The notes beneath the pieces are model-generated. The model was not told the origin of the DNA. It ran no database searches and saw nothing but the letters and a program-made list of their open reading frames with translations. DNA of 64,000 nucleotides, taken from NCBI RefSeq assembly GCF_054482525.1, contig NZ_CM137006.1. One strand, given 5' to 3'. Position 1 is the stretch's first letter. Every line of letters begins with the position of its first letter. Below are positions 3,506-45,089 of this stretch, one piece after another. The translations under genes and the position numbers were made by a program.

Positions 3506-3547
3506 TTAGATTTGACTGAAATCGTACAGTAAAAAGCGTACAATAAA

Positions 3548-3573
3548 GGCTCCACGAAAGTGGGGCCTTTTTT
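3548..3573 (+). terminator. Rho-independent terminator downstream of pflB (GGCTCCACgaaaGTGGGGCC + T-run)
   Basis: GC-rich hairpin followed by TTTTTT immediately after the pflB stop. Confidence 0.55.
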
Positions 3574-3696
3574 AGCACGAGAGCCTTTTTTGTCAGCTAT
3601 CTATACTTTAAGGTGACTGCCAAAACAGACTCGACGTAGCCTTCGAGCTGCGCACCAACACGGCCTCAGATGGGCCACATCTGGAGAAACACCGCA

Positions 3697-4437
3697 ATGT
3701 CAGTTATTGGTCGCATTCACTCCTTTGAATCCTGTGGAACCGTAGACGGCCCGGGTATTCGCTTTATCACCTTTTTCCAGGGCTGCCTGATGCGCTGCCT
3801 GTATTGTCATAACCGCGACACCTGGGACACGCATGGCGGTAAAGAAGTTACCGTTGAAGATTTGATGAAAGAGGTGGTGACCTATCGCCACTTTATGAAC
3901 GCTTCCGGCGGCGGCGTTACCGCATCCGGCGGTGAAGCAATCCTGCAAGCTGAGTTTGTTCGTGACTGGTTCCGCGCCTGCAAAAAAGAAGGCATTCATA
4001 CCTGTCTGGATACCAACGGTTTTGTTCGTCGTTACGATCCGGTGATTGATGAACTGCTGGAAGTAACCGACCTGGTAATGCTCGATCTCAAACAGATGAA
4101 CGACGAGATCCACCAAAATCTGGTTGGAGTTTCCAACCACCGCACGCTGGAGTTTGCTAAATATCTGGCGAATAAAAATGTGAAGGTGTGGATCCGCTAC
4201 GTTGTTGTCCCAGGCTGGTCTGACGATGACGATTCAGCGCATCGCCTCGGTGAATTTACCCGTGATATGGGCAACGTTGAGAAAATCGAGCTTCTCCCCT
4301 ACCACGAACTGGGCAAACACAAATGGGTGGCGATGGGTGAAGAATACAAACTCGATGGTGTTAAACCACCGAAGAAAGAGACCATGGAACGCGTGAAAGG
4401 CATTCTTGAGCAGTACGGTCATAAGGTAATGTTCTAA
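3697..4437 (+). CDS. pflA: Pyruvate formate-lyase activating enzyme (radical SAM, 246 aa)
   Basis: [44 protein letters not shown] with CxxxCxxC radical-SAM motif; start taken at the internal ATG of ORF 3670-4437. Confidence 0.95.
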
Positions 4438-4449
4438 TTTCCCCGTAAA

Positions 4450-4480
4450 GCGGCAACTTTTTTGAGTTGCCGCCTTTTTA
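4450..4480. terminator. Hairpin terminator between convergent pflA and ycaM (GCGGCAAC...GTTGCCGC with flanking T/A runs)
   Basis: Inverted repeat flanked by T-runs, positioned between two convergent stop codons. Confidence 0.5.
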
Positions 4481-4646
4481 TTCCGCGCTGCATAAATAAT
4501 TCAGAGCTCTATTTCTAACGCCCTTACAGCACAGCTTCCAAATGTATTACCCAAACCGCCAGTATATGTCCTGCGGCTTGCGCGCATTTCTCGATTATGT
4601 AAAAACGGGTCAGATCTGCCAGAGTCAGCGTCACCGACCACAATAA

Positions 4647-6077
4647 TTATTTGCTATTCGCTTTACGCGCCAGCAGCGGGAATATCAGCCCTAATCCTAC
4701 CAGCACAAACGGCGTTGCAACATTCAGCGCCAACTGGAATGTCCACTCTGCGGTGAAGGCTTCCATTTTTGGGAAAATACCAGTCAGGCAGGCAAAAGCG
4801 GTAAAGGCAAAACACCAAATTCCGACGGTCATTGCCAGCGGCTTATTACGAATAAAGACATATTCCGGCTTATATTTCTGCGCCAGGCGAACAACTGCAA
4901 TAAATGCAACAAATACCCATAAATAACGCAGCGGCATCACTACCGAGTTAAGATTCAACAGCCATTTATAGAGATTGTTCATATCACCAATGCCGAGAGT
5001 CGGTAGCATTATCAGGATCGCCACCAGCGCCAGGGTCAGAAAATAGCCATTAACGGGCGTACCAGAAGCGTTGGTACGACATAAACTGGCTGGAATATAT
5101 TTGCTGTCAGCATCGCCTAATAACACTTTAAGCGGCGCATCAATCGAGAATACCAGCGCAGCTACTTGTCCCAGGGTATTCGCAATGGCATAAATCACCA
5201 TTAAAGTATTACCCATGTTGTAATACTCGCCCAGCTTCTGAAAGGCGTAATACTGACCGTTAGTCATTAAGTCATCCGGGATATTACGCGAGTCAAACAT
5301 CATCCCCATCGCCAGTGAGCCCAGAATGGCACAAACCGCAACCATCACCGCCAGGCATAACATCCCTTTTGGAAATTCTTTTCCTGGGTTGCGCGTTTGA
5401 TTAACATAAGGAGAAATCTTCTCTGCTCCGCCAACCGCGAAAACCAGCATTGAAATAGTGGTAATGTAGGTAAAGTCGATATGAGGAATGAACGTTTCCC
5501 AGGTAATGTTTGTGGTCGCAATATGCACTTCAGTAATCGCAGGCGCGGTTACCGCCATCGCCACATACAGGAGCGACATAACAAACATCGCAATCCCTGC
5601 CACAGAACCGACGATTTTCAGCGATTTCATACCGCGTGAAGCAACCCACATAAAGAAGACAAACAGCACCAGCGTTAACCCCTGTAACGCTACGACTGAA
5701 TATTCTTTGATTAGCGAACCGTCGCCTTTCATCGCCCAACCGAGCGCAATCAGTATTGCCTGGGGTTTTTGTGCCAGATAGGGAATATGCACTACCCAGT
5801 AGGTCCACGCGGCGAGGTAAGCCAGTCCGGGTCCCATCGTGTGTTTAATCCAGGTACTGACCCCGCCCTTCCCATCTTTGAAGGTCGAGCCTAACTGACC
5901 AACAATTAGCGCATAAGGTGTGAAATAGAGCGCAAAGATAAACACCCATGAAAAAACAACCACCAGCCCCTGGTTGGCGTAGTTATTAACAACGTTGCCA
6001 AAACCCCAGACAGTGATAAAAGACATCAGCGCAATGTTGTACCATCGCAGCTGTTTTTCCTGAACATTCCCAGCCAT
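4647..6077 (-). CDS. ycaM: APC-superfamily transporter YcaM (476 aa)
   Basis: MAGNVQEKQLRWYNIALMSFITVWGFGNVVNNYANQG..., polytopic membrane protein; start at the internal ATG of ORF 4647-6269. Confidence 0.85.
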   Translation of the reverse strand: MAGNVQEKQLRWYNIALMSFITVWGFGNVVNNYANQGLVVVFSWVFIFALYFTPYALIVGQLGSTFKDGKGGVSTWIKHTMGPGLAYLAAWTYWVVHIPYLAQKPQAILIALGWAMKGDGSLIKEYSVVALQGLTLVLFVFFMWVASRGMKSLKIVGSVAGIAMFVMSLLYVAMAVTAPAITEVHIATTNITWETFIPHIDFTYITTISMLVFAVGGAEKISPYVNQTRNPGKEFPKGMLCLAVMVAVCAILGSLAMGMMFDSRNIPDDLMTNGQYYAFQKLGEYYNMGNTLMVIYAIANTLGQVAALVFSIDAPLKVLLGDADSKYIPASLCRTNASGTPVNGYFLTLALVAILIMLPTLGIGDMNNLYKWLLNLNSVVMPLRYLWVFVAFIAVVRLAQKYKPEYVFIRNKPLAMTVGIWCFAFTAFACLTGIFPKMEAFTAEWTFQLALNVATPFVLVGLGLIFPLLARKANSK

Positions 6078-36622: not shown

Positions 36623-39469
36623 TCAGAAGGTCACATTCAGTGTGGCCTGACCGTTATACCCTTCAGCGCTGCTGCCGCTGACGCTGTGGGCATAACCGGC
36701 CTGAACGCCCAGGGTGATATTTTCCCGGACACGGGCTTCCAGTCCGGCCTGCAGGTCCAGTGACGTGCCATTCCGGGACGGTGAGAACGTCATGTTACTG
36801 CCGGCTGCGGCTGTACCCATGCTCATGTCTCCCCGGGAGCTGAAGGTGCGGATAACAGAAGGCTGTACCCACCAGTTCACAGGCAGTTCACTCACACCGT
36901 GTTTTGTACTGTCGCGCAGGGTGTCACGGGATGAGGTGCCTTCACCAAAGGTCATATCGTTGTGGCTGCCCAGACGGAAACCGGCACGCACATGTTGTGC
37001 ACTGCCATGCCCGAACTTCACATAACCGGCGTTATCCTGGCCGTCATCCAGGGAAAGTCCCTGCCAGGTATAGTGCAGTTGTGGCTCCAGCATCAGGTTG
37101 TCAGTGATACTGAAGGGCAGACCGGTTTCCAGTGAGCCCAGCCAGCCCCAGCCCCGGGCGCGGAAGTCGTTATTGTCCGATGACGCTTTCATGCTGTGGC
37201 GGGTTCCCTGTGCCACAATGTCAGCCCACAGGCCGGAGGACGTGTGTGTCAGATTCAGGTATCCGCCCAGGCTGCCGGCATCATCCCGGACCGTGCCGGC
37301 GCGGGAACCGTCATCATCCTTAACATCAACGGAAGAATGGCCTGCGGCACCATACACCCCTGTCGTCAGAGACATACCGGCAACCTCTGTTCTCAGCAGG
37401 TCACCCTCCAGACGGACGAAGCCATAGCTGCCGCTGCTTTCCGGCGTGGCTCCACGGGCAATACCGCCGTTGTTATCGTGACCGAGATGACCGCCCTGAA
37501 TGCTGAGACGGACGCTGTTATTTTCACCGTTTACACCGGTCTGATGGCTGCGGGAGCCTGCCAGAATCCGATCATGGTCCATTGCCTGTGTCAGCATGGA
37601 TGTATACAGGGGGACTTCAGCACGATAAGCATTTTCACTGCGCAGGTACCAGTCTTCATCGCTGTCACGGTTCAGGGTGTAGTTAAAGGCGCCGGCCTGA
37701 AGCGGGCGACTCAGGGCAAACGCACCTTCTTCTGTGGTGGCGCCATTCTGTGCATCCACAACCCGGATACCCTGTCCGGAGGTTGCCACCCCGAGGTTAC
37801 TGTTTCCGACATTTGTAAACGCAAGCCAGGTTTTGCCGGTTGCCTGACCACCATTAATCACCAGCTGGTCAGAGGTATTGCTGCCATCAAGGCGAACACG
37901 CATATTGATGGTGCCACCCTGACCGGTGAGGTTACTGGTGGTCAGTTTATGGAACGTTACCGGGGAGTCGCCTTTTGCAACAGCACGGCTCAGCGCGGCA
38001 TCCGGTGTCGTCTGATTATCAAAGCGAATCTCCCCTGCGTTAACAATATCGCCGGTACTGACCACATCGCCATTCAGTACCATGCTGGCACCTTTACTGA
38101 GCTGTGTTCTGCCACTCAGACTTCCCCCGGCAGCCAGCGTCAGTGTTCCACGATGTCCGACAGTGGTGTTGCTGGCCAGTCCTCCGGCATTAACCGTAAA
38201 GCTGCCGCCATTTTCCAGCAGCAGTCCGCTGGCCTGACCGGATGTGCCATCAATACTGAACTTACCGCTGGCATTGGTCCCCTCAACAGTGGCACCACTG
38301 TCTGCAATCAGGGCACTACCGGATGTCATGGTGACATCTGTTGCCTTACCACCGGCAGACACTGCCAGGGTTCCGCCGTCATCCACCCGTGTTTTCCAGG
38401 CTGAATGGCCCTCCAGTACATCCAGGCGACCACCGGACTCCAGAACAACACCGTCAGCATTACCGTTTTCCACAGTGAAATTGCCCAGACGGTTGCTGCC
38501 GGTGACGGTTGCCGCCGTACTGGTGACCAGTGCGCCTCCCTGCTTCAGCGTGACATTCGTGGCTGTACCACCGGCGTTCACCTGCAGTTTGCCTTTCTGG
38601 TTAACGGTGGTGAAATCCGCCAGACCACCTTCCTTGACAATCTGCCAGCCGTCACTGTTCACAACAGTGTCAGAGGCTGTACCGCCGTTGTGCACATACT
38701 GGTTACCGCCGTTCAGTGTGGTATCCAGCGCGTAGCCATGTACAGTCTGGTCGCCGCCGGCATAAACCACAGTGGTATTTGCTGTTCCTTCAGCAGCCAC
38801 AATCTGACGACCATTTTCATTGATAGTGGTACGTACGGCATTTCCGCGAACAAACTGCCCGGTATCACCATTTTCTGCATCCGGTCCCCCTTCCGCGCCG
38901 GTATTCACAACCGTGTCGGTTGCCACTGCGCCGGATTTGATGGCCTGCCAGCCCTTCTCATTAATGACGGTACCCGTTGCAATCCCGCCTTCATGTACCC
39001 ACTGCTCACCGCCGTTCAGAGTGGTATTCACTGCCTGCCCCTGAAGGCTCTGTCCGCCTCCGGCACTGATAACCGTGTCTGAAACGCTTCCTCCGGCATT
39101 CACTCTCTGAAGACCACCACCGGTGACAGTAGTGTTGTTGGCGATACCGCCATTTTGTATCCATTGTCCGCCGGTATTGGCCTCGTTATCCGGCCCATAC
39201 TCCAGACCGGTACTGATGGTCATTCCGTTGGCCGTACCGAAGACAATCTGGTTGTCATGATTTGTCAGTGTTCCGCCGCTCACGGTTTCTCCCGCCTGTA
39301 CGACCGTGTCAGCAGCCAGTACCGGGACTGACGTGACAGCAGCAAGAGACAGCGCAACCGCCACACCGGTGCGTTTTCCCCGTGAGCGCGCCAGTTCGGA
39401 AGCCACCACCAGGGTGCCCGTAATGTGATTCCATACCAGCCTGTAGCTGGTGTTCAGATGTCGTTTCAT
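36623..39469 (-). CDS. flu: Antigen 43 self-associating autotransporter adhesin (948 aa from MKRHLNTSYRLVWNH...)
   Basis: Extended signal peptide MKRHLNTSYRLVWNHITGTLVVASELARSR, GG-rich beta-helix passenger repeats, C-terminal beta-barrel ending ...NGQATLNVTF. Confidence 0.9.
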   Translation of the reverse strand: MKRHLNTSYRLVWNHITGTLVVASELARSRGKRTGVAVALSLAAVTSVPVLAADTVVQAGETVSGGTLTNHDNQIVFGTANGMTISTGLEYGPDNEANTGGQWIQNGGIANNTTVTGGGLQRVNAGGSVSDTVISAGGGQSLQGQAVNTTLNGGEQWVHEGGIATGTVINEKGWQAIKSGAVATDTVVNTGAEGGPDAENGDTGQFVRGNAVRTTINENGRQIVAAEGTANTTVVYAGGDQTVHGYALDTTLNGGNQYVHNGGTASDTVVNSDGWQIVKEGGLADFTTVNQKGKLQVNAGGTATNVTLKQGGALVTSTAATVTGSNRLGNFTVENGNADGVVLESGGRLDVLEGHSAWKTRVDDGGTLAVSAGGKATDVTMTSGSALIADSGATVEGTNASGKFSIDGTSGQASGLLLENGGSFTVNAGGLASNTTVGHRGTLTLAAGGSLSGRTQLSKGASMVLNGDVVSTGDIVNAGEIRFDNQTTPDAALSRAVAKGDSPVTFHKLTTSNLTGQGGTINMRVRLDGSNTSDQLVINGGQATGKTWLAFTNVGNSNLGVATSGQGIRVVDAQNGATTEEGAFALSRPLQAGAFNYTLNRDSDEDWYLRSENAYRAEVPLYTSMLTQAMDHDRILAGSRSHQTGVNGENNSVRLSIQGGHLGHDNNGGIARGATPESSGSYGFVRLEGDLLRTEVAGMSLTTGVYGAAGHSSVDVKDDDGSRAGTVRDDAGSLGGYLNLTHTSSGLWADIVAQGTRHSMKASSDNNDFRARGWGWLGSLETGLPFSITDNLMLEPQLHYTWQGLSLDDGQDNAGYVKFGHGSAQHVRAGFRLGSHNDMTFGEGTSSRDTLRDSTKHGVSELPVNWWVQPSVIRTFSSRGDMSMGTAAAGSNMTFSPSRNGTSLDLQAGLEARVRENITLGVQAGYAHSVSGSSAEGYNGQATLNVTF

Positions 39470-39686
39470 CAGCTTTTCCTTACAGAGGGTGAATAAAAAA
39501 GCCGGTACCCACAAATGTGGATACCGGCAGGTACAAAACAGCATGGTCAGATAAAGTGGTTTTTCCCGGACATAAATGCTTCCCCTCTCTCATCCGCCAG
39601 AGAAGTATCAGTCCGTTGTGTGCAATTCCGTTCTGCATGATGAAGAGATTCAGCTGCCTTTTCGCAGACCATTAACCACTATAAAC

Positions 39687-39722
39687 GATCGATAGCAACG
39701 ATCGATACCTGTTTTATCGATC
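39687..39722 (-). promoter_or_regulatory. agn43 phase-variation switch: three GATC Dam sites (39687, 39700, 39719) within the presumptive OxyR operator
   Basis: aaacGATCgatagcaacGATCgatacctgttttatcGATCg located upstream of flu; triple-GATC architecture is the established Dam/OxyR switch of agn43. Confidence 0.7.
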
Positions 39723-39840
39723 GTTTTATTCTATTAACGACAAGGCGGTCACGCAAGAGAAACAGGAGGAGTATGAGGGGTTTGTGTCATGTTTTCAGTT
39801 GGTTAACGTAATGTTATCAGGCATTTCCCTGGCAGACTGT

Positions 39841-40713
39841 TCAGAAGAAAATCCAGTTCCATACAGCGCGGGCAACAGAGACCACCGTGTCACGGACGGC
39901 ACGCAGAACCGTACGGGCAACAGAGGCAACACAGACGCTCTCCGCCGTGTCAAATATCCGGTCCACCGCACCGGTAAACTGTTCACGGGCCTGAGCGCGG
40001 ACAGATTCCGTGCGCAGCTCGTCCTGCAGGCGGGTCATCAGGGGACTGGCGGCATGGTCGGGAAGTGCTGTCATTAGCGCACTGACCAGCGTATCCAGTT
40101 CCCAGCCGGTGCGGGCCGATACGGCAACAACCGGATGTACGGGCCGGAACAGACGGAATACCGCCTCCGTTTTCTCCCGAATGTTCTGTGCCTGTGCGGG
40201 AGAAGGCTGAATGCCGGCCATATCCCATTCATGGCAGGGCTCCGTTTTGTCGGCCTGCGTCACCACAAACAGCACCTGCTGATGTCCCCGGTGCAGGATG
40301 TGTCGCCAGAAATACTCATCCACAGACAGGGCGCGGTCATCGGCTTTAATCAGCCACAGCACCAGGTCCAGTTCGGGCAGAATGTCACGGTACAGGGCTT
40401 CATACTCTGCATCCCTGTCCCGGCTCTCGCCCACCCCGGGCAGGTCAGTGATAACCATGCTGTGACCATGGCCACTCAGACGGAAGCGCCGTACTTCCCG
40501 GGTGCCGGCGTGAACATCACTGACCGGGGTGACCTCCCCCTGAAACAGTGCATTACAGAGTGAGGATTTACCGGCCCCGCTTTTACCCATAATGCCAATC
40601 ACGGGTTCGTGACTGGTGAGTTTGCGCAGATGTTCCAGGATGTGACGGGAAAGCGAGTAAGGCAGGGAGGAGAGCGGTTTTTCAATTGCCTCAATGGCAT
40701 CAGACGGATTCAT
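39841..40713 (-). CDS. yeeP: YeeP/YfjP/YkfA-family GTPase (about 290 aa)
   Basis: P-loop GIMGKSGAGKSSLCNALF, DLPGVGES G3-like motif; start taken at MNPSD within ORF 39841-40752. Confidence 0.75.
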   Translation of the reverse strand: MNPSDAIEAIEKPLSSLPYSLSRHILEHLRKLTSHEPVIGIMGKSGAGKSSLCNALFQGEVTPVSDVHAGTREVRRFRLSGHGHSMVITDLPGVGESRDRDAEYEALYRDILPELDLVLWLIKADDRALSVDEYFWRHILHRGHQQVLFVVTQADKTEPCHEWDMAGIQPSPAQAQNIREKTEAVFRLFRPVHPVVAVSARTGWELDTLVSALMTALPDHAASPLMTRLQDELRTESVRAQAREQFTGAVDRIFDTAESVCVASVARTVLRAVRDTVVSVARAVWNWIFF

Positions 40714-41286
40714 ACATGTATTCCCGGTGAAAAAAGACAAAACCCCGCGCACCGGAAAAGTGGCGGGGGACTCACGGAGATAATATCTGCCTAAAATTAT
40801 TTGGAATGCAGGTATATGCAGCTAATTTGTATCGGCTCATTAGTACAGAACTAAACCTCATCTGACAGTCCGCTCTGTGCCAGGAGCAGACATTGCCAAC
40901 GTTATGACCCTCGATTACATCAAAGAGCCCTATAGCCGAAACCTGCACCATAGCCATCTCTGTAGAATTCGTCCTAGGGGCTTTTAACAGACCTAGTTGT
41001 ATGGAGCGGAAGGAAATATTAAAGCTCAAGGCGTCAGTCCAGTGCTGTCCTGTTTGCTTACCACACGAAAGAGTGCTGCTTGTACCTGCTAACTAATGGT
41101 ATGCGGAGTGAGGGGGGCGGGTAGAACCAAAAGCACTTACTACGTGTGGCGCTCTCCTGGAAGAGGAGACGTCGAAGTGATAACGCTAACAACAGTCTTA
41201 CTGGTGATGCAAATAATGCTAGCTGGTCTGGTTGCCATCAAGCAACTGACTGGACGCCCGTAAGGGATGGAGGAACTTGATTAAAG

Positions 41287-41316
41287 GCAGGGGGGTTACC
41301 TCCCCTGCCTTTTTTC
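41287..41316 (+). terminator. Strong Rho-independent terminator (GGCAGGGG...CCCCTGCC + TTTTTT) ending a plus-strand transcript upstream of gene 41379
   Basis: 8-bp GC-rich stem with short loop followed by a T-run; plus-strand orientation only. Confidence 0.65.
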
Positions 41317-41378
41317 GTTTCTGCGCAAGTTAGCTCTGTTATTATAATCCTTACTCACACTGTAAGGACATAGTTCAA

Positions 41379-42062
41379 ATGACTGAATGGCTTAATGCAC
41401 ATTTTGGTGCAGACGCAGCTACCTATCTTAGCTTATTAGTCGGCGTACTGGCACTGTTTGGTATTGGGGGCGGTGTTACATATAGAATCAGACAGCAAAA
41501 CAACATAAAACAGAAGGCAAAGAAAACCGAGGGTGATGTGAACCAGGCCGGGCGGGATATTAATCAGACCACCAACGTTTACCACACATCCAATGAATCT
41601 ACTGAGGACCCTGTAAAAAAAAAGCAAGATGAACATGATCTGAAGATAATCGACCAGATCCTTGAATTGCTGCCTTATGAGGATACTACTCAATGGGTTG
41701 AGCAGAGCTACCTGAGCGGTATACGGCAAGATGTTTGCTTAAACATTGAAAAAGCTGAAAAATTTAGCGGTGAAAAGTATCGGTTATTCAATACTGAAGT
41801 GAATGGTGCGAAAGACGCTTTTTTGGACGCTATGACCGCATACGTAGATAGTACGCTACCATTTATGAGTGTTGATTACCCGAACAGAAAGCCAGTGATG
41901 CTAAGCCTTCCCCATGACTGGAAGAGTAAGAGTGTTGAATCGGAGGCAAACTTCCGCTTTCATCAGCAAAATGTGCGTGAAACATCGGGGGGGATGATTG
42001 CGCGCTATGAGGATTTTGTCAGGACATTTAAGGCTCATGGATTCATAAGCGATAAACTGTAA
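41379..42062 (+). CDS. Hypothetical N-terminally membrane-anchored protein (227 aa)
   Basis: ATG preceded by AAGGA and a TATAAT -10 box at 41343-41348; one predicted TM helix (YLSLLVGVLALFGIGGGV); own terminator downstream; no recognised domain. Confidence 0.6.
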   Translation: MTEWLNAHFGADAATYLSLLVGVLALFGIGGGVTYRIRQQNNIKQKAKKTEGDVNQAGRDINQTTNVYHTSNESTEDPVKKKQDEHDLKIIDQILELLPYEDTTQWVEQSYLSGIRQDVCLNIEKAEKFSGEKYRLFNTEVNGAKDAFLDAMTAYVDSTLPFMSVDYPNRKPVMLSLPHDWKSKSVESEANFRFHQQNVRETSGGMIARYEDFVRTFKAHGFISDKL

Positions 42063-42141
42063 AGGCGCAGTGGGTCAGCGAACACCGCAACGACAGAACC
42101 GCGTAAGCGGTAAAATCAGCTTGTTAACTGGCGAGTTTATA

Positions 42142-42166
42142 GCCGTCCCTCCGGGGCGGCTTTTTT
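42142..42166 (+). terminator. Rho-independent terminator after gene 41379-42062 (GCCGTCCCtccGGGGCGGC + TTTTTT)
   Basis: Hairpin followed by a T-run 80 bp after the stop codon. Confidence 0.6.
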
Positions 42167-42416
42167 ATGACTATAATCGACAGAATCACCTGAACGTCCA
42201 GGTGGGTTTCCCTGACAGGACGTCAAGGAATGTTCGCTTTGTGCCAGGAGCGGACGTTGCCAGCATTGAGTTTTCAGTTTTCAAAGGTATATCTTTAGAT
42301 TTAGTTCACTTAGAATGAGCGTGTTAAAGTTTTCGGTTATGTGAGTATATTGAACATAACAAATAAACAATAATTTTTGTATTCCATTTAAGATATAAAA
42401 AAGAGGGATTTGAGTT

Positions 42417-43202
42417 ATGTACGATTATAGTTTTTTACTTACTCCATCTACAGGATTTGTTAAAGGATTATGTGGAGTTTGGTCGAATGATTTCTCTATA
42501 AATGATGATTCTGACTCTGATTTAGGGCAAACAGATATTCATTTACTTTCATCTCCTCATTTGAATATCATATCCGACCCAAATGAATTGGCTTCCAAGT
42601 TAAAAGGTTTGTTGATGCTCATGAACGGCGCACTTAGCGTTCTTTATGGTTTTGAAAGATATCAATCTTTTGGTCCTCTTTCTATTTCTGGAAGTGAAGG
42701 CATTAATTACTCGGAAATATGCGGCTTTAAATCAATGGATGTAACTCAGGTAAATCCCTTTAATTTCCATGACATACAGCAACCACACCCTCGCGCTGAT
42801 AATTTTTCACGATTAATTAATTTATCATCTAAACATGAATCCTTACGTGTTGTTTTAGGTATGTGTGCCTTAGGTTATGATTGGGTTAATCTTTATCGTT
42901 TGTGGGAAACAATTAGAGAATATGTATATGATAAATATGTGAAAGGTATACTAAATTTTCCCGACGCTTATAAAGGCAAGAAATATCAGAGAGATAAAGT
43001 AATTAGCATGGCTTTTAATATTGATGAAAAGGAAATCAGCAGATTCACGGGCACTGCTAATAGCTTTGAACTGTTAGGGTATCTTGCGAGACATGGAAAG
43101 GGAAGTTCCGGAGGGATATTAAAAAATCCGATGTCAAGAGTTGACGCAAGCAATTTCGTACACAAAGCAACTTACAAATATTGTAAGTTATTTTTGATGT
43201 AA
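42417..43202 (+). CDS. Hypothetical protein (261 aa), strongly AT-rich gene of likely foreign origin
   Basis: Clean ORF preceded by AAGAGGGA RBS; codon usage and GC content far below the flanking DNA; no recognised domain. Confidence 0.6.
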   Translation: MYDYSFLLTPSTGFVKGLCGVWSNDFSINDDSDSDLGQTDIHLLSSPHLNIISDPNELASKLKGLLMLMNGALSVLYGFERYQSFGPLSISGSEGINYSEICGFKSMDVTQVNPFNFHDIQQPHPRADNFSRLINLSSKHESLRVVLGMCALGYDWVNLYRLWETIREYVYDKYVKGILNFPDAYKGKKYQRDKVISMAFNIDEKEISRFTGTANSFELLGYLARHGKGSSGGILKNPMSRVDASNFVHKATYKYCKLFLM

Positions 43203-43363
43203 GTAAAAAGTTGAAGCTATAATACTCAAAGTATCGAAAACTACGTTCGTCGTGCACTCGAAAACAATATGCTTATTGTGTCTGCACTAATTACTCAAGG
43301 TCCGAGAAAAATGGCGAAGCTCATCTTTTTCAGGCTTCGCCAACTTGAGTTATTGGTTAAAAT

Positions 43364-44116
43364 TCATTTAGGAATAATAGAATGCAATTCGTGACTCACC
43401 TGGATTTCATAGTGTTTCAATAGTTCTCCGATGTTAATTCCTACTACCTTACGAACTGCGCCGAGGGAGAAGTTAAGCTCCTCAATGCCCGGCCGATCTG
43501 GCGTTGAATTCATATAGTGTCGGCACGCACGGACAATTGACTCGACGATCAACGATAGCGGAGACTCAGGTGCAATCTCGGAGCGAATCGCCGTAAGAGA
43601 GAGTCGGAGCTCCTTCAAAGAATCCGAGACTCGTGCTGGATCCTCTTGAGCATATGGCAGATAAAGAGAACTCTTGTCTTCCAATAAATGGATCACCCGC
43701 AGAGCAATTTTCTCGTCTGGGCGATGCGATAGAAATTGAAACATTAGCCTCTTTCCTCCCTCCAAGCACTCCTTCATTAGTGATTCGTGGTCACGTTTCC
43801 ATTTTCGCAAATACTCGGCGGGGTAGCCCATACCGCCATTCTTATCAACTAAATCAGCACAAGCTCCGCACAACCATATAGCATTTTTTATGCTCTTCCG
43901 CTCTGTTTCTGACTGAGACATGTCATAGCGCGGTCCGCCAGGGCTCGCCGCGCAGATATGCGCCGCCTCACCCGTCTTGATAGAAAGATTTTCCGCCAAT
44001 TGATCCGGGCCGATTGTTACCCTATGACAAGAGGGATTGCTACAAATATATGTAGCGCGCTCTGCTACCTTACCTACAACGCTTGGAGGAAAGTTGTGCC
44101 TATTTGTCTTGGTCAT
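43364..44116 (-). CDS. Hypothetical protein with N-terminal HNH-nuclease-like motif (250 aa)
   Basis: CSNPSCH ... EAAHICAASPGGPRY ... NAIWLCGACADLVD resembles the Cys-pair/His/Asn arrangement of HNH endonucleases; C-terminal domain unrecognised. Confidence 0.55.
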   Translation of the reverse strand: MTKTNRHNFPPSVVGKVAERATYICSNPSCHRVTIGPDQLAENLSIKTGEAAHICAASPGGPRYDMSQSETERKSIKNAIWLCGACADLVDKNGGMGYPAEYLRKWKRDHESLMKECLEGGKRLMFQFLSHRPDEKIALRVIHLLEDKSSLYLPYAQEDPARVSDSLKELRLSLTAIRSEIAPESPLSLIVESIVRACRHYMNSTPDRPGIEELNFSLGAVRKVVGINIGELLKHYEIQVSHELHSIIPK

Positions 44117-45089
44117 AAAAGTTATGCTTCTTTGTTTTTTTCATCTATGTGGGGAGAATAAAATCATACTTTTTATATCTGATCCTAGGTCTGACCAGCA
44201 ACCTATTGATCAAAAAACCAAGATATTAGCTAAAAAAAATCAGCATACTTGAGACCAAGCTCAATGTCCGCTCCTCGCTCAAAGCAGACCATTCGCTCAG
44301 TTAACGCATCAGTGTCGTGCTAAAAGTAGACGTGGTTAACAACAATGTGAGTTAATCAACGGAGAGCAGGTCAACTCTAACCTGTATCAAAAAAACAAAT
44401 GTGTCACAAAGATGCCGCATGCCTTAATTTGAGTATAATTGAGACGGAAGTAGACGGTTTATGGCTAAATATTGTTGATATATAGCTATTTGAAGAGTTG
44501 TAGCGCAAGTGTATAGCCCAAACTAATAACGCTACGCCCCTTACCTTTGACGCCTCTTATCAAAGAGCGGCGATGATGCACAGCCCGCACGAGGCAATAT
44601 TCGCACAAGAATCAGGTTCAGAAATAACCTGATCTGGCATGGTGGGGAGAGTATCACTGAGCAGGCTTTCGGTAAAATGCGGCGGGATGAGGTCGGCGTG
44701 GGTTGCAGCAGTACAATGTCGCCCGCAGAGGGTAAGCCACAGCGCGGGATCCTCGGTTTCTATCAGGGATTCGACGAAGTGGGCGCAGTTGTCGACCAAG
44801 GCGGTGAAATCCATAGTGACATTATAAGGAAACGAACAATAGATCGAGTAAATCGCAGTCAGGGACAAGGATTGTAGTCATAGAGAAGTCTCCTGTAACG
44901 GTTTTCAGGAAGCTAATCCCGACGCCTGATTTTGCAGGCGCGGAAGGAGAAGATACTGCGGCCATTAATCCGCCACAAGGCATTTACGTGCATAAATCGC
45001 GCAGTCAAATCCGACTCCCACTGTAGTTCTTGAACCTGATACCACATTTAGCTAATTTAGCTAACTTATCTATTATACCAGTGGTTGCC

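What the first reader, a model, noticed from the sequence alone, without database searches (positions are those of the whole stretch)
40862..42267. Imperfect direct repeats (about 30 bp) flanking the 41379-42062 gene
The core ctGTGCCAGGAGCaGACaTTGCCAaCgTT (40876-40903) recurs as ttGTGCCAGGAGCgGACgTTGCCAgCaTT (42239-42267), 24 of 29 identical with all internal mismatches being A/G transitions. Both copies are preceded by CTGACAG (40862 and 42212). They bracket about 1.35 kb containing the orphan terminator and the membrane-anchored gene, and could be attachment-site remnants of a small inserted cassette, protein-binding sites, or parts of a structured RNA.
Basis: seen in the sequence. Interest (0 to 1): 0.45.

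Follow-up and report, generated by a model that had tools for sequence, protein, structure and literature searches.

The report
Recombination sites bounding swappable gene cassettes
The two repeats are copies of a conserved 24-36 bp recombination site that marks the edges of swappable gene cassettes in phage P2 relatives and E. coli islands, and the 1.36 kb between them is a cassette inserted at such a site.

Summary
The repeat is real: 36 nt at 40868-40903 and 42232-42267, 83% identical, with no comparable match in 100 shuffles. Each copy is a 24-bp dyad, GTCCGCT-nTGTGCCAnn-AGCGGAC, plus an inner extension RTTGCYAACRTT. I call this an "L" site. A third, inverted "R" site (centre TGAGCGA) lies at 44266-44289.

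Copy 1 is the inner end of the "left inverted repeat" annotated in phage P2 Z-region GenBank records (Nilsson et al. 2004). The same three-gene cargo sits between the tail genes G and FI of a P2-like prophage.

E. coli Nissle 1917 has one L site between the flanks where strain 144 has copy 1, the 227-aa gene segment and copy 2. The bracketed segment is therefore a discrete insertion. It is joined through copy 2 to three different downstream cargos.

Across 393 distinct sites, the outer arm travels with the flank and the inner arm with the cargo. This places exchange in the invariant centre.

A 200-aa tyrosine recombinase, 76-96% identical across Gammaproteobacteria, is followed directly by an L-like site in nearly all contexts examined. 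It is absent from this window. The site family is known in outline. The L/R site logic and the recombinase link were not found in the literature I could search.

The parts
40810..40867 (+). Outer flank of the left boundary element. It is homologous to the outer part of the P2 Z-region 'left inverted repeat' and ends in TCTGACA.
   Evidence: Alignments A1 and A2. blastn matches to P2-like phages and to GenBank AJ512676-83, where the region is annotated 'left inverted repeat'.
40868..40903 (+). L site, copy 1: 24-bp dyad GTCCGCTC-TGTGCCAG-GAGCAGAC (40868-40891) plus inner extension ATTGCCAACGTT.
   Evidence: The left arm is identical to the resident site of the empty locus. The right arm (A at position 21) and the extension belong to cassette A.
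40904..42231 (+). Cassette A body. It holds a 28-codon hydrophobic ORF (41177-41263), an intrinsic terminator (41283-41312), a 227-aa N-terminally anchored protein gene (41379-42062) and a second terminator (42141-42161).
   Evidence: ORFs, terminators. No Pfam, PADLOC, PHROG or NCBIfam match for the 227-aa protein. Absent as a unit from Nissle 1917. Joined to three different downstream cargos.
42232..42267 (+). L site, copy 2: GTTCGCTT-TGTGCCAG-GAGCGGAC (42232-42255) plus inner extension GTTGCCAGCATT.
   Evidence: Homology with strain 144 and 20 similar genomes stops at 42255, the last base of the dyad.
42268..44265 (.). Cassette B: a 261-aa gene (42417-43202, +) and a 250-aa HNH-type nuclease gene (43364-44116, -), convergent.
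   Evidence: The 250-aa protein matches PADLOC PDC-M68A at 6.6e-24 and other HNH effector models, and PHROG families of unknown function. In E. coli complete genomes it is found only together with cassette A (14 genomes).
44266..44289 (-). R site. Read on the minus strand it is GTCTGCTT-TGAGCGAG-GAGCGGAC, followed by ATTGAGC pointing into the cargo. It is the counterpart of the P2 'right inverted repeat'.
   Evidence: Homology with the P2-like prophage of strain cM2a ends at 44289. Homology with the same island carrying other cargo (L005) resumes at 44263.
44290..44307 (+). Linker-like outer flank CATTCGCTCAGTTAACGC. It resembles the 16-18-nt linker (CTTyAGCTCAGT...) found between back-to-back R and L sites in cassette arrays.
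   Evidence: Comparison with composite junctions in L055, L014 and L068 and the flank lists. This is an inference from sequence similarity only.
39841..40752 (-). YfjP/YeeP-family GTPase gene: the conserved island backbone gene next to the hotspot (context, not part of the element).
   Evidence: More than 4100 E. coli genomes match this end of the query, and homology stops 108-197 nt into the query, at or before copy 1.

Best explanation
The two repeats are two direct copies of an 'L' recombination site. The site is a 24-bp core with two inverted arms (GTCYGCTn / nAGCRGAC) around an invariant asymmetric centre (TGTGCCA), plus about 12 bp on the cargo side. Together with an inverted 'R' site (same arms, centre TGAGCGA) at 44266-44289, they delimit a cargo hotspot next to the GTPase gene of a CP4-type island. 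This is the same kind of hotspot as the Z/fun region between genes G and FI of P2-like phages.

Shown: the 1,364-bp unit (cassette A plus one site) is a discrete insertion at an L site. Its left copy is resident-arm/cassette-arm and its right copy is cassette-arm/resident-arm.

Inferred: the insertion arose by conservative site-specific recombination between a circular single-site cassette and the resident L site, with strand exchange in the central region. L...R-flanked cargo is swapped by paired LxL and RxR events, because the two centres differ and should not cross-react.

Inferred from association only: the enzyme is a small (200 aa) tyrosine recombinase with no separate N-terminal domain. 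It is encoded in the 'linker' position of an R-int-L junction and acts in trans. It is not in this window.
For: 1. Empty versus filled site. Nissle 1917 (L250) has one L site between flanks that in strain 144 (L002) hold copy 1 + cassette A + copy 2. Both L002 copies align to the single L250 site.
2. Cassette A is joined at copy 2 to three different cargos: B (window), X (L002) and a GNAT cassette (plasmid pSCU-111-1). Cargo X occurs without A in more than 330 genomes, starting exactly at the site.
3. The block 40845-44289 is 99.4% identical to the G-FI hotspot of a P2-like prophage. The same island with other cargo is homologous only up to 40899 and from 44263.
4. Over 393 distinct sites, pairs with the same outer flank but different cargo differ at positions 16, 17 and 21. 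Pairs with the same cargo but different outer flank differ at positions 4 and 8. The centre (positions 9-15) is TGTGCCA in 182 of 214 L sites and TGAGCGA in 158 of 179 R sites.
5. Arrangement rules over 125 loci: L+..R- 92 times; back-to-back R/L 38 times, 28 of them with a gap under 60 nt (median 18); L+L+ 29 times; R+R+ 22 times.
6. The 200-aa PF00589 protein is 76-96% identical from Escherichia to Idiomarina, Cycloclasticus and Pseudoalteromonas. Its stop codon is followed within about 20 nt by CAGGGCTGC-aaca-GCAGCCCTGTGCCAnnAGCGGAC in E. coli islands, viral contigs and marine ICEs, and different cargo begins right after the inner arm. Homology of this module across more than 700 E. coli genomes starts at an R-like site and ends at the L-like site.
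7. A 56-65% identical recombinase clade has int-adjacent and nearby sites with related arms but centre CGGCCA.
8. In the strain-144 type genomes the recombinase gene lies about 1.5 kb from copy 2.
Against: No recombinase of this family is present in the 64-kb window. About 13-17% of E. coli complete genomes carry it, whereas at least 37% carry the left boundary element, so most sites have no recombinase nearby. The enzyme-site link rests on adjacency and co-variation, not on any assay. Mapping exchange to the centre cannot by itself exclude homology-driven crossover, because the centre is also the longest invariant stretch. Arm segregation is strong but not absolute. Cassette B was never seen without A, so only A is shown to move alone. 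I could not read Nilsson et al. 2004, so I cannot say how much of this they already proposed.
Confidence: 0.6

Rival explanations
1. The sites are conserved intergenic 'linker' hairpins whose primary role is something else, such as insulation, RNA-end protection or binding of a host protein. Cargo exchange would then happen by general or phage-encoded short-homology recombination (RecA, Red/RecET) within the 24-36 bp of shared sequence, with no dedicated recombinase.
For: Most site-bearing genomes lack the candidate recombinase. Exchange maps to the longest invariant stretch, as homology-driven crossover also would. P2 hotspots are additionally flanked by conserved genes G and FI, which allow ordinary homologous exchange among phages.
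Against: The phage hotspot and the CP4-type island share only the sites themselves, which is little homology for general recombination, by my general knowledge. A single-crossover insertion of a 1.36-kb circle through 24 bp is an unlikely RecA event. Two site types with fixed, different centres and strict relative orientation have no rationale under this model. The core is conserved across Alpha-, Beta- and Gammaproteobacteria and is physically coupled to a tyrosine recombinase gene. The sites are not followed by T-runs, and the real terminators lie elsewhere.
Confidence: 0.22
2. The dyads act as folded single-stranded hairpins recognised by an integron-type integrase or an HUH (RAYT / IS200-IS605-type) enzyme. 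On this reading the system is an attC-like or REP/REPIN-like element.
For: Each site can fold as an 8-bp stem with an 8-nt loop. Back-to-back R-linker-L pairs resemble REP doublets. Some genomes hold many copies, with 18 or more loci in one Hyphomicrobiales MAG. An IS110-family element sits inside one site, and some members of that IS family are known to target REP and attC hairpins (my knowledge).
Against: The stem shows no covariation: at positions 4/21 the counts are C-G 57, C.A 14, T.G 10, T-A 3. Exchange maps to what would be the loop, not to a stem-end box. There is no GTTRRRY core and no intI gene. I saw no conserved GTAG-type tetranucleotide 5' of the sites in the flank lists. Copy number in E. 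coli is 1-4 per genome for the left element. The associated enzyme is a tyrosine recombinase, not HUH.
Confidence: 0.08
3. The L and R elements are terminal inverted repeats of a transposon or MITE-like element, and the direct repeat in the window is a nested or tandem copy of one end.
For: GenBank annotates about 100-nt 'left' and 'right inverted repeats' around P2 cargo. The whole L...R block is shared between phage and island.
Against: The two arms of a site segregate with different neighbours. No target-site duplication is visible at the junctions. No transposase is associated. Cargo changes while both outer flanks stay fixed (L005 versus window). Insertion of cassette A duplicates a whole site, which is the signature of site x site recombination.
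Confidence: 0.04
4. The repeats are operator or regulatory sites, or parts of a structured RNA belonging to the flanked gene, with no role in mobility.
For: They have dyad symmetry and lie in intergenic DNA upstream of genes.
Against: The same site bounds hundreds of unrelated cargos, including LysR/SDR pairs, NUDIX, DinB and defence genes. There is no Rfam match and no covariation. Homology breakpoints coincide with the sites.
Confidence: 0.03

Closest known systems
Inverted repeats flanking the Z/fun variable region of P2-like coliphages (Nilsson, Karlsson & Haggard-Ljungquist 2004, Mol Biol Evol 21:1, doi 10.1093/molbev/msg223; GenBank AJ512676-AJ512683)
   Same: Copy 1 with its outer flank aligns to the annotated 'left inverted repeat', and the 44266-44289 site aligns to the 'right inverted repeat'. 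The window's cargo also occurs in the G-FI hotspot of a P2-like prophage. The paper's title already invokes site-specific recombination linking P2-like phages and pathogenic enterobacteria.
   Different: Here the sites lie in a CP4-type island next to a YfjP/YeeP GTPase gene. There is an extra internal L copy, and only the 24-bp core of the right repeat is present. I could not read the paper. Whether it defines the 24-bp core, the L/R centres or a recombinase is unknown to me.
Acinetobacter dif modules (pdif / XerC-XerD sites), e.g. PMC6449649, PMC13141974
   Same: Discrete accessory-gene modules are bounded by inversely oriented short recombination sites, arranged in arrays, shuffled between replicons, and have no recombinase inside each module. 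IS elements that target the sites exist there (PMC10132070), and an IS110-family insertion sits inside an L site here.
   Different: The site sequence is unrelated to the dif consensus as I recall it. Junctions here are double (R-linker-L) rather than a single shared site. Two centre types exist. The candidate enzyme is a 200-aa MGE-borne recombinase, not host XerC/XerD.
Integrons (IntI, attI, attC gene cassettes)
   Same: Small, mostly one- or two-gene cassettes are inserted at a specific site and form arrays. A recombinase gene sits directly adjacent to a specialised hybrid site, which is attI-like. Direct-repeat cassettes such as A could excise as circles. Cargo includes defence genes.
   Different: There is no IntI and no attC architecture or GTTRRRY core. 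The site sequence itself is conserved. Exchange is central rather than at a box edge. Most cassettes are flanked by inverted heterotypic sites and carry their own terminators.
Simple tyrosine-recombinase core sites with heterospecific spacers (loxP/lox variants, FRT variants; FimB/FimE-type ~200-aa invertases)
   Same: Geometry is two inverted arms around a 6-8-bp asymmetric centre. Two site classes differ only in the centre, the arrangement used artificially for recombinase-mediated cassette exchange. The candidate enzyme is about the size of FimB/FimE and matches only the catalytic domain of Xer-type models.
   Different: No biochemical data exist. Sequence identity to FimB is too low for a BLAST hit at E<=0.01 against the loci ORFs. 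All NCBIfam matches are far below their cut-offs, and no solved structure matches by sequence.

Membership tests
P2 Z/fun-region boundary repeats (Nilsson et al. 2004) | Sequence homology to the annotated left and right inverted repeats of P2-EC30/31/46/48/53/58 | tested here: met
   blastn of 40800-40910 hits AJ512676-83 under the feature 'left inverted repeat'. Alignment A2 aligns copy 1, copy 2 and the reverse complement of 44255-44380 with both repeats.
P2 Z/fun-region boundary repeats (Nilsson et al. 2004) | [quoted passage not shown] | tested here: not met
   In the window the sites lie beside a GTPase gene of a CP4-type island. The identical cargo with its sites is in the G-FI position in strain cM2a and in viral contigs L062/L063 and L089.
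Tyrosine-recombinase core recombination site | Two inverted binding arms around a short asymmetric central region | tested here: met
   GTCYGCTn / nAGCRGAC arms. The centre is TGTGCCA in 85% of L sites and TGAGCGA in 88% of R sites.
Tyrosine-recombinase core recombination site | Exchange point inside the central region | tested here: met
   The outer arm segregates with the flank and the inner arm with the cargo. In the strain 144 versus Nissle comparison the crossover lies between positions 3 and 21. This is comparative inference, not cleavage mapping.
Tyrosine-recombinase core recombination site | A cognate recombinase that binds and recombines the site | tested here: inconclusive
   A 200-aa PF00589 protein is followed by an L-like site in nearly all contexts examined, and a distant clade has a different centre. 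It is absent from the window. No activity data exist.
Integron attC / gene cassette | IntI integrase gene with adjacent attI; attC with R''-L''/L'-R' boxes and GTTRRRY core | tested here: not met
   No tyrosine recombinase hit in the window. The sites lack GTTRRRY. The integron-integrase model scores 19-24 bits against a cut-off of 265 on the candidate enzyme's relatives.
Xer/dif (pdif) modules | 28-bp XerC-arm / 6-bp / XerD-arm site resembling dif | not tested
   By eye, the L and R sequences share no arm with the dif, cer or pdif consensus as I recall it. No alignment tool was run on this comparison. Only the module architecture is similar.
REP / BIME / REPIN | High-copy intergenic palindromes with a conserved 5' tetranucleotide, associated with a RAYT gene | tested here: not met
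   There are three copies in 64 kb, all at cargo boundaries. The left element occurs 1-4 times per E. coli genome. I saw no GTAG-type tetranucleotide in the flank lists. Multi-copy dispersal is seen in a few non-enterobacterial genomes.
Structured RNA | Compensatory changes that preserve pairing; match to a curated family | tested here: not met
   No excess of compensated pairs at the variable stem positions. No Rfam match at E<=1 over 39000-44000.
Transposon / MITE terminal inverted repeats | Both ends move with the cargo; target-site duplication; transposase | tested here: not met
   Site halves segregate separately. No duplication is visible at the junctions. No transposase is linked.

The most novel reading that the evidence does not exclude
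The repeats are one visible instance of a widespread gene-cassette system in Proteobacteria that does not depend on integrons. Cassettes would be bounded by two heterospecific 24-bp sites (L and R: same arms, different centres). They would be inserted as circles (LxL or RxR) or swapped as blocks (LxL plus RxR, a natural form of recombinase-mediated cassette exchange). The enzyme would be a highly conserved 200-aa tyrosine recombinase that sits at an R-int-L junction and acts in trans. This would be the mechanism that turns over cargo, including anti-phage genes, at the P2 G-FI hotspot, at CP4-type islands, at ICE cargo regions and in chromosomal arrays.
Probability: 0.35. Interest if true: 0.8.

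Novelty: new variant of a known kind. Interest (0 to 1): 0.6.

Why it matters
Phage and island hotspots hold much of the anti-phage and accessory gene diversity of E. coli. The mechanism that exchanges their contents is stated to be unknown (Rousset et al. 2022, PMC9122126, discussion). This locus gives a defined core site, a clean filled-versus-empty natural experiment and a candidate enzyme. The question becomes testable with a simple two-plasmid recombination assay. If confirmed, it would add a third cassette system beside integrons and Acinetobacter dif modules. It would link phage, island, ICE and plasmid cargo pools, and might supply a compact natural recombinase with heterospecific sites.

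Tried and rejected
- Rfam scan of 39000-44000 at E<=1 found only the IS102/IsrC sRNA and a weak CsrC-like terminator. Nothing matched at the repeats.
- Sigma-54 and P2 late-promoter (TGT-N12-ACA) readings of the repeat were rejected by eye because the spacings do not fit.
- Stem covariation was tested and is absent.
- Pfam, PADLOC, PHROG and NCBIfam gave nothing for the 227-aa and 261-aa proteins.
- Clustering ORFs around 240 site-centred loci produced no universal neighbour. The top families were P2 tail genes, LysR regulators and SDR enzymes, that is, context or cargo. The recombinase emerged only from a small cluster.
- The marine ICE loci carrying the recombinase have no canonical L or R site at <=6 mismatches. 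The hybrid int-adjacent site was found only by reading the flanks.
- Full-text searches for the site sequences, for the protein accessions and for descriptions of such a system found nothing relevant.
- Nilsson et al. 2004, Odegrip et al. 2006 and Svab et al. 2013 are not held.
- I did not check whether the genome that matches the window (AH65) carries the recombinase elsewhere.
Full report
**Observation**

The repeat exists and is longer than reported. The repeat finder gives 40868-40903 and 42232-42267: 36 nt, 83% identical, 1364 nt apart. A degenerate 27-mer of the core occurs only at these two places in the window and never in 100 shuffles. Read directly, each copy is a dyad: GTCCGCTC-TGTGCCAG-GAGCAGAC in copy 1 and GTTCGCTT-TGTGCCAG-GAGCGGAC in copy 2. 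Each is followed by RTTGCCARCRTT. The 29-mer of copy 1 starts at 40875 rather than 40876.

**Setting**

The minus strand carries an Ag43 autotransporter gene (36623-39544) and a YfjP/YeeP-type GTPase gene (39841-40752). The IsrC/IS102 sRNA lies between them. The window is identical over the queried 40700-42450 to E. coli AH65 and five other genomes. There this is the backbone of a CP4-type island (antirestriction, RadC/JAB and CbtA/YeeU genes), followed by variable cargo that includes a type I R-M system with DarTG. More than 4100 E. coli genomes match the GTPase end of the query, and homology stops 108-197 nt in, at or before copy 1. Twenty-one genomes match up to 42255, the last base of the copy-2 dyad, and then diverge.

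**Identity of the repeat**

A blastn of 40800-40910 against phage records hits P2-like phages downstream of tail fibre assembly gene G. It also hits GenBank AJ512676-AJ512683 (P2-EC30 to P2-EC58 "proviral Z-region"), where the matched stretch is annotated "left inverted repeat" and a "right inverted repeat" closes the variable segment. These records belong to Nilsson, Karlsson & Haggard-Ljungquist 2004. I could not read that paper.

Aligning both annotated repeats with the window shows a third site at 44266-44289. Read on the minus strand it is GTCTGCTT-TGAGCGAG-GAGCGGAC-ATTG. I call TGTGCCA-centred sites L and TGAGCGA-centred sites R.

**The unit that moves**

Pairwise blastn gives three results.
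- The P2-like prophage of strain cM2a carries window 40845-44289 at 99.4% identity between genes G and FI.
- The same island in strain PapRG-04-4 is homologous up to 40899 and from 44263, with a different gene in between.
- Strain 144 is homologous up to 42255 and then carries other cargo.

Every breakpoint falls at a site edge.

**Filled versus empty site**

The cargo downstream of copy 2 in strain 144 ("X") occurs in more than 330 genomes, starting exactly at an L site, without cassette A. In Nissle 1917 the left flank is the same as in strain 144, and there is one L site. Both L002 copies align to it. Reading the variable positions:
- copy 1 = resident left arm + cassette right arm (A at position 21, then ATTGCC);
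- copy 2 = cassette left arm (T at position 3) + resident right arm (then TGTCC).

This is the product expected when a 1,364-bp circle carrying one site recombines with the resident site. Cassette A is also joined through copy 2 to a GNAT cassette on plasmid pSCU-111-1. Cassette B was found in only 14 complete genomes, always with A.

**The site family**

The genomes include many Enterobacterales, Idiomarina, Pseudidiomarina, Rheinheimera and Amphritea, and also Hyphomicrobiales, Nitrosomonadales and other MAGs. About 35 viral loci are P2 G-FI hotspots.

Over 125 loci with two or more sites, consecutive sites are arranged as follows:
- L+..R- 92 times, median 1.45 kb apart;
- back-to-back R/L 38 times, 28 of them with a gap under 60 nt (median 18), forming composite junctions between successive cassettes;
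- L+L+ 29 times and R+R+ 22 times.

An E. coli island next to a three-gene tyrosine-recombinase module holds an array of single-gene cassettes (NUDIX, DinB, DJ-1/PfpI, TauE+AraC), each bounded this way. The most frequent recurring cargo families in the bacterial-genome loci are LysR regulators and SDR enzymes.

**Where exchange occurs**

Among 393 distinct sites, pairs sharing the outer flank but not the cargo differ mostly at positions 16, 17 and 21, and hardly at positions 1-8. Pairs sharing the cargo but not the outer flank differ mostly at positions 8 and 4. The centre is nearly invariant within each type. The two arms therefore have different histories, and the join lies in the centre. 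Stem positions show no compensatory pattern, which argues against selection for a folded RNA or ssDNA hairpin.

**A candidate enzyme**

A small ORF cluster in the site-centred loci is a 200-aa PF00589 protein annotated "site-specific integrase" (WP_001305361.1). It lies inside cargo X, about 1.5 kb from copy 2 in strain 144. Homologues at 76-96% identity occur across Gammaproteobacteria.

In E. coli islands, in viral contigs and in marine ICEs that otherwise lack canonical sites, the stop codon is followed within about 20 nt by CAGGGCTGC-aaca-GCAGCCCTGTGCCAnnAGCGGAC. This is an L centre and inner arm fused to a gene-specific outer arm, and unrelated cargo starts right after it. In enterobacterial contexts an R-like site precedes the gene. 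Homology of this roughly 710-bp module among 718-928 E. coli genomes begins and ends at those sites.

A clade 56-65% identical has int-adjacent and nearby sites with related arms but centre CGGCCA. The protein matches only the catalytic domain of Xer-type models, far below every NCBIfam cut-off, and has no solved relative by sequence. It is not encoded in the window.

**Interpretation**

Shown:
- the repeats are copies of a conserved boundary site;
- the segment between them is a discrete insertion;
- the site family bounds cargo in several kinds of mobile element.

Inferred:
- conservative site-specific recombination with central strand exchange;
- L and R acting as non-cross-reacting partners, so that L...R cargo is swapped by two events and single-type cassettes insert or excise as circles.

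Inferred from association only: the 200-aa recombinase is the enzyme and acts in trans.

The main rival is short-homology recombination at conserved linker sequences. I give it about 0.2.

**Comparison with known systems**

The locus is a member, by sequence, of the P2 Z-region repeat family. It works like Acinetobacter dif modules (PMC6449649, PMC13141974) and partly like integrons, but it fails the defining tests of both. I found no description of the L/R core, the composite junctions or the recombinase link in the searchable literature. Rousset et al. 2022 state that the mechanism of exchange at P2/P4 hotspots is unknown. The key 2004 paper was unavailable, so novelty is rated cautiously.

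Noticed in passing
window 41177-41312 (+): A GTG-start 28-codon hydrophobic ORF (VITLTTVLLVMQIMLAGLVAIKQLTGRP) has GGAGA 7 nt upstream and is followed by a 13-bp-stem intrinsic terminator (41283-41312). It looks like a type I toxin-like small gene or the 3' end of an sRNA inside cassette A.
   Followed up: partly
window 39488-39724 (-): Rfam IS102 (IsrC) sRNA match, 73.4 bits (gathering score 46), between the GTPase and Ag43 genes, as in the K-12 CP4-44 region.
   Followed up: no
L004 about 3520-5000 (E. coli Z1323PEC0014): An IS110-family element is inserted inside the L site (...TTGTGCCAGG | IS | AGCAGACATTGCC). Plasmid pSCU-111-1 (L253 5113-6134) has a different IS110-family gene next to an R-like site. 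This may be a site-targeting IS, analogous to IS1202-family elements that target pdif sites (PMC10132070).
   Followed up: partly
L129 9000-14200 (E. coli AR_0128): An array of single-gene cassettes (TauE+AraC, NUDIX, DinB, DJ-1/PfpI), each bounded by L...R with R-linker-L junctions. It lies downstream of an HNH endonuclease gene and a three-gene module with two tyrosine recombinases.
   Followed up: partly
L095 5896, L132 8027, L219 2970 and others: Rare sites have hybrid centres (TGAGCCA, TGTGCGA). This is what a crossover between an L and an R site inside the central region would produce.
   Followed up: no
L139-L156 (Hyphomicrobiales MAG OFTM377), e.g. L148 3125-3205: One alphaproteobacterial MAG holds 18 or more dispersed copies. 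Each is paired with an upstream perfect hairpin (ATGTCCGCTTT-loop-AAAGCGGACAT) about 17 nt away. This REP-like multi-copy spread is unlike the low copy number in E. coli.
   Followed up: partly
L250 4503-5210 (Nissle 1917) and homologues: Between the R-like site and the recombinase start codon lies a 13-bp perfect palindrome (ACTCAAATCTCC-N8-GGAGATTTGAGT), conserved in the enterobacterial copies. It may be an operator for the recombinase gene.
   Followed up: no
window 43364-44116 (-): The 250-aa protein of cassette B has an N-terminal HNH-type nuclease region matching PADLOC candidate system PDC-M68A (6.6e-24) and CBASS/SAVED-HNH effector models. Together with the convergent 261-aa gene it may be an uncharacterised two-gene defence system.
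   Followed up: partly
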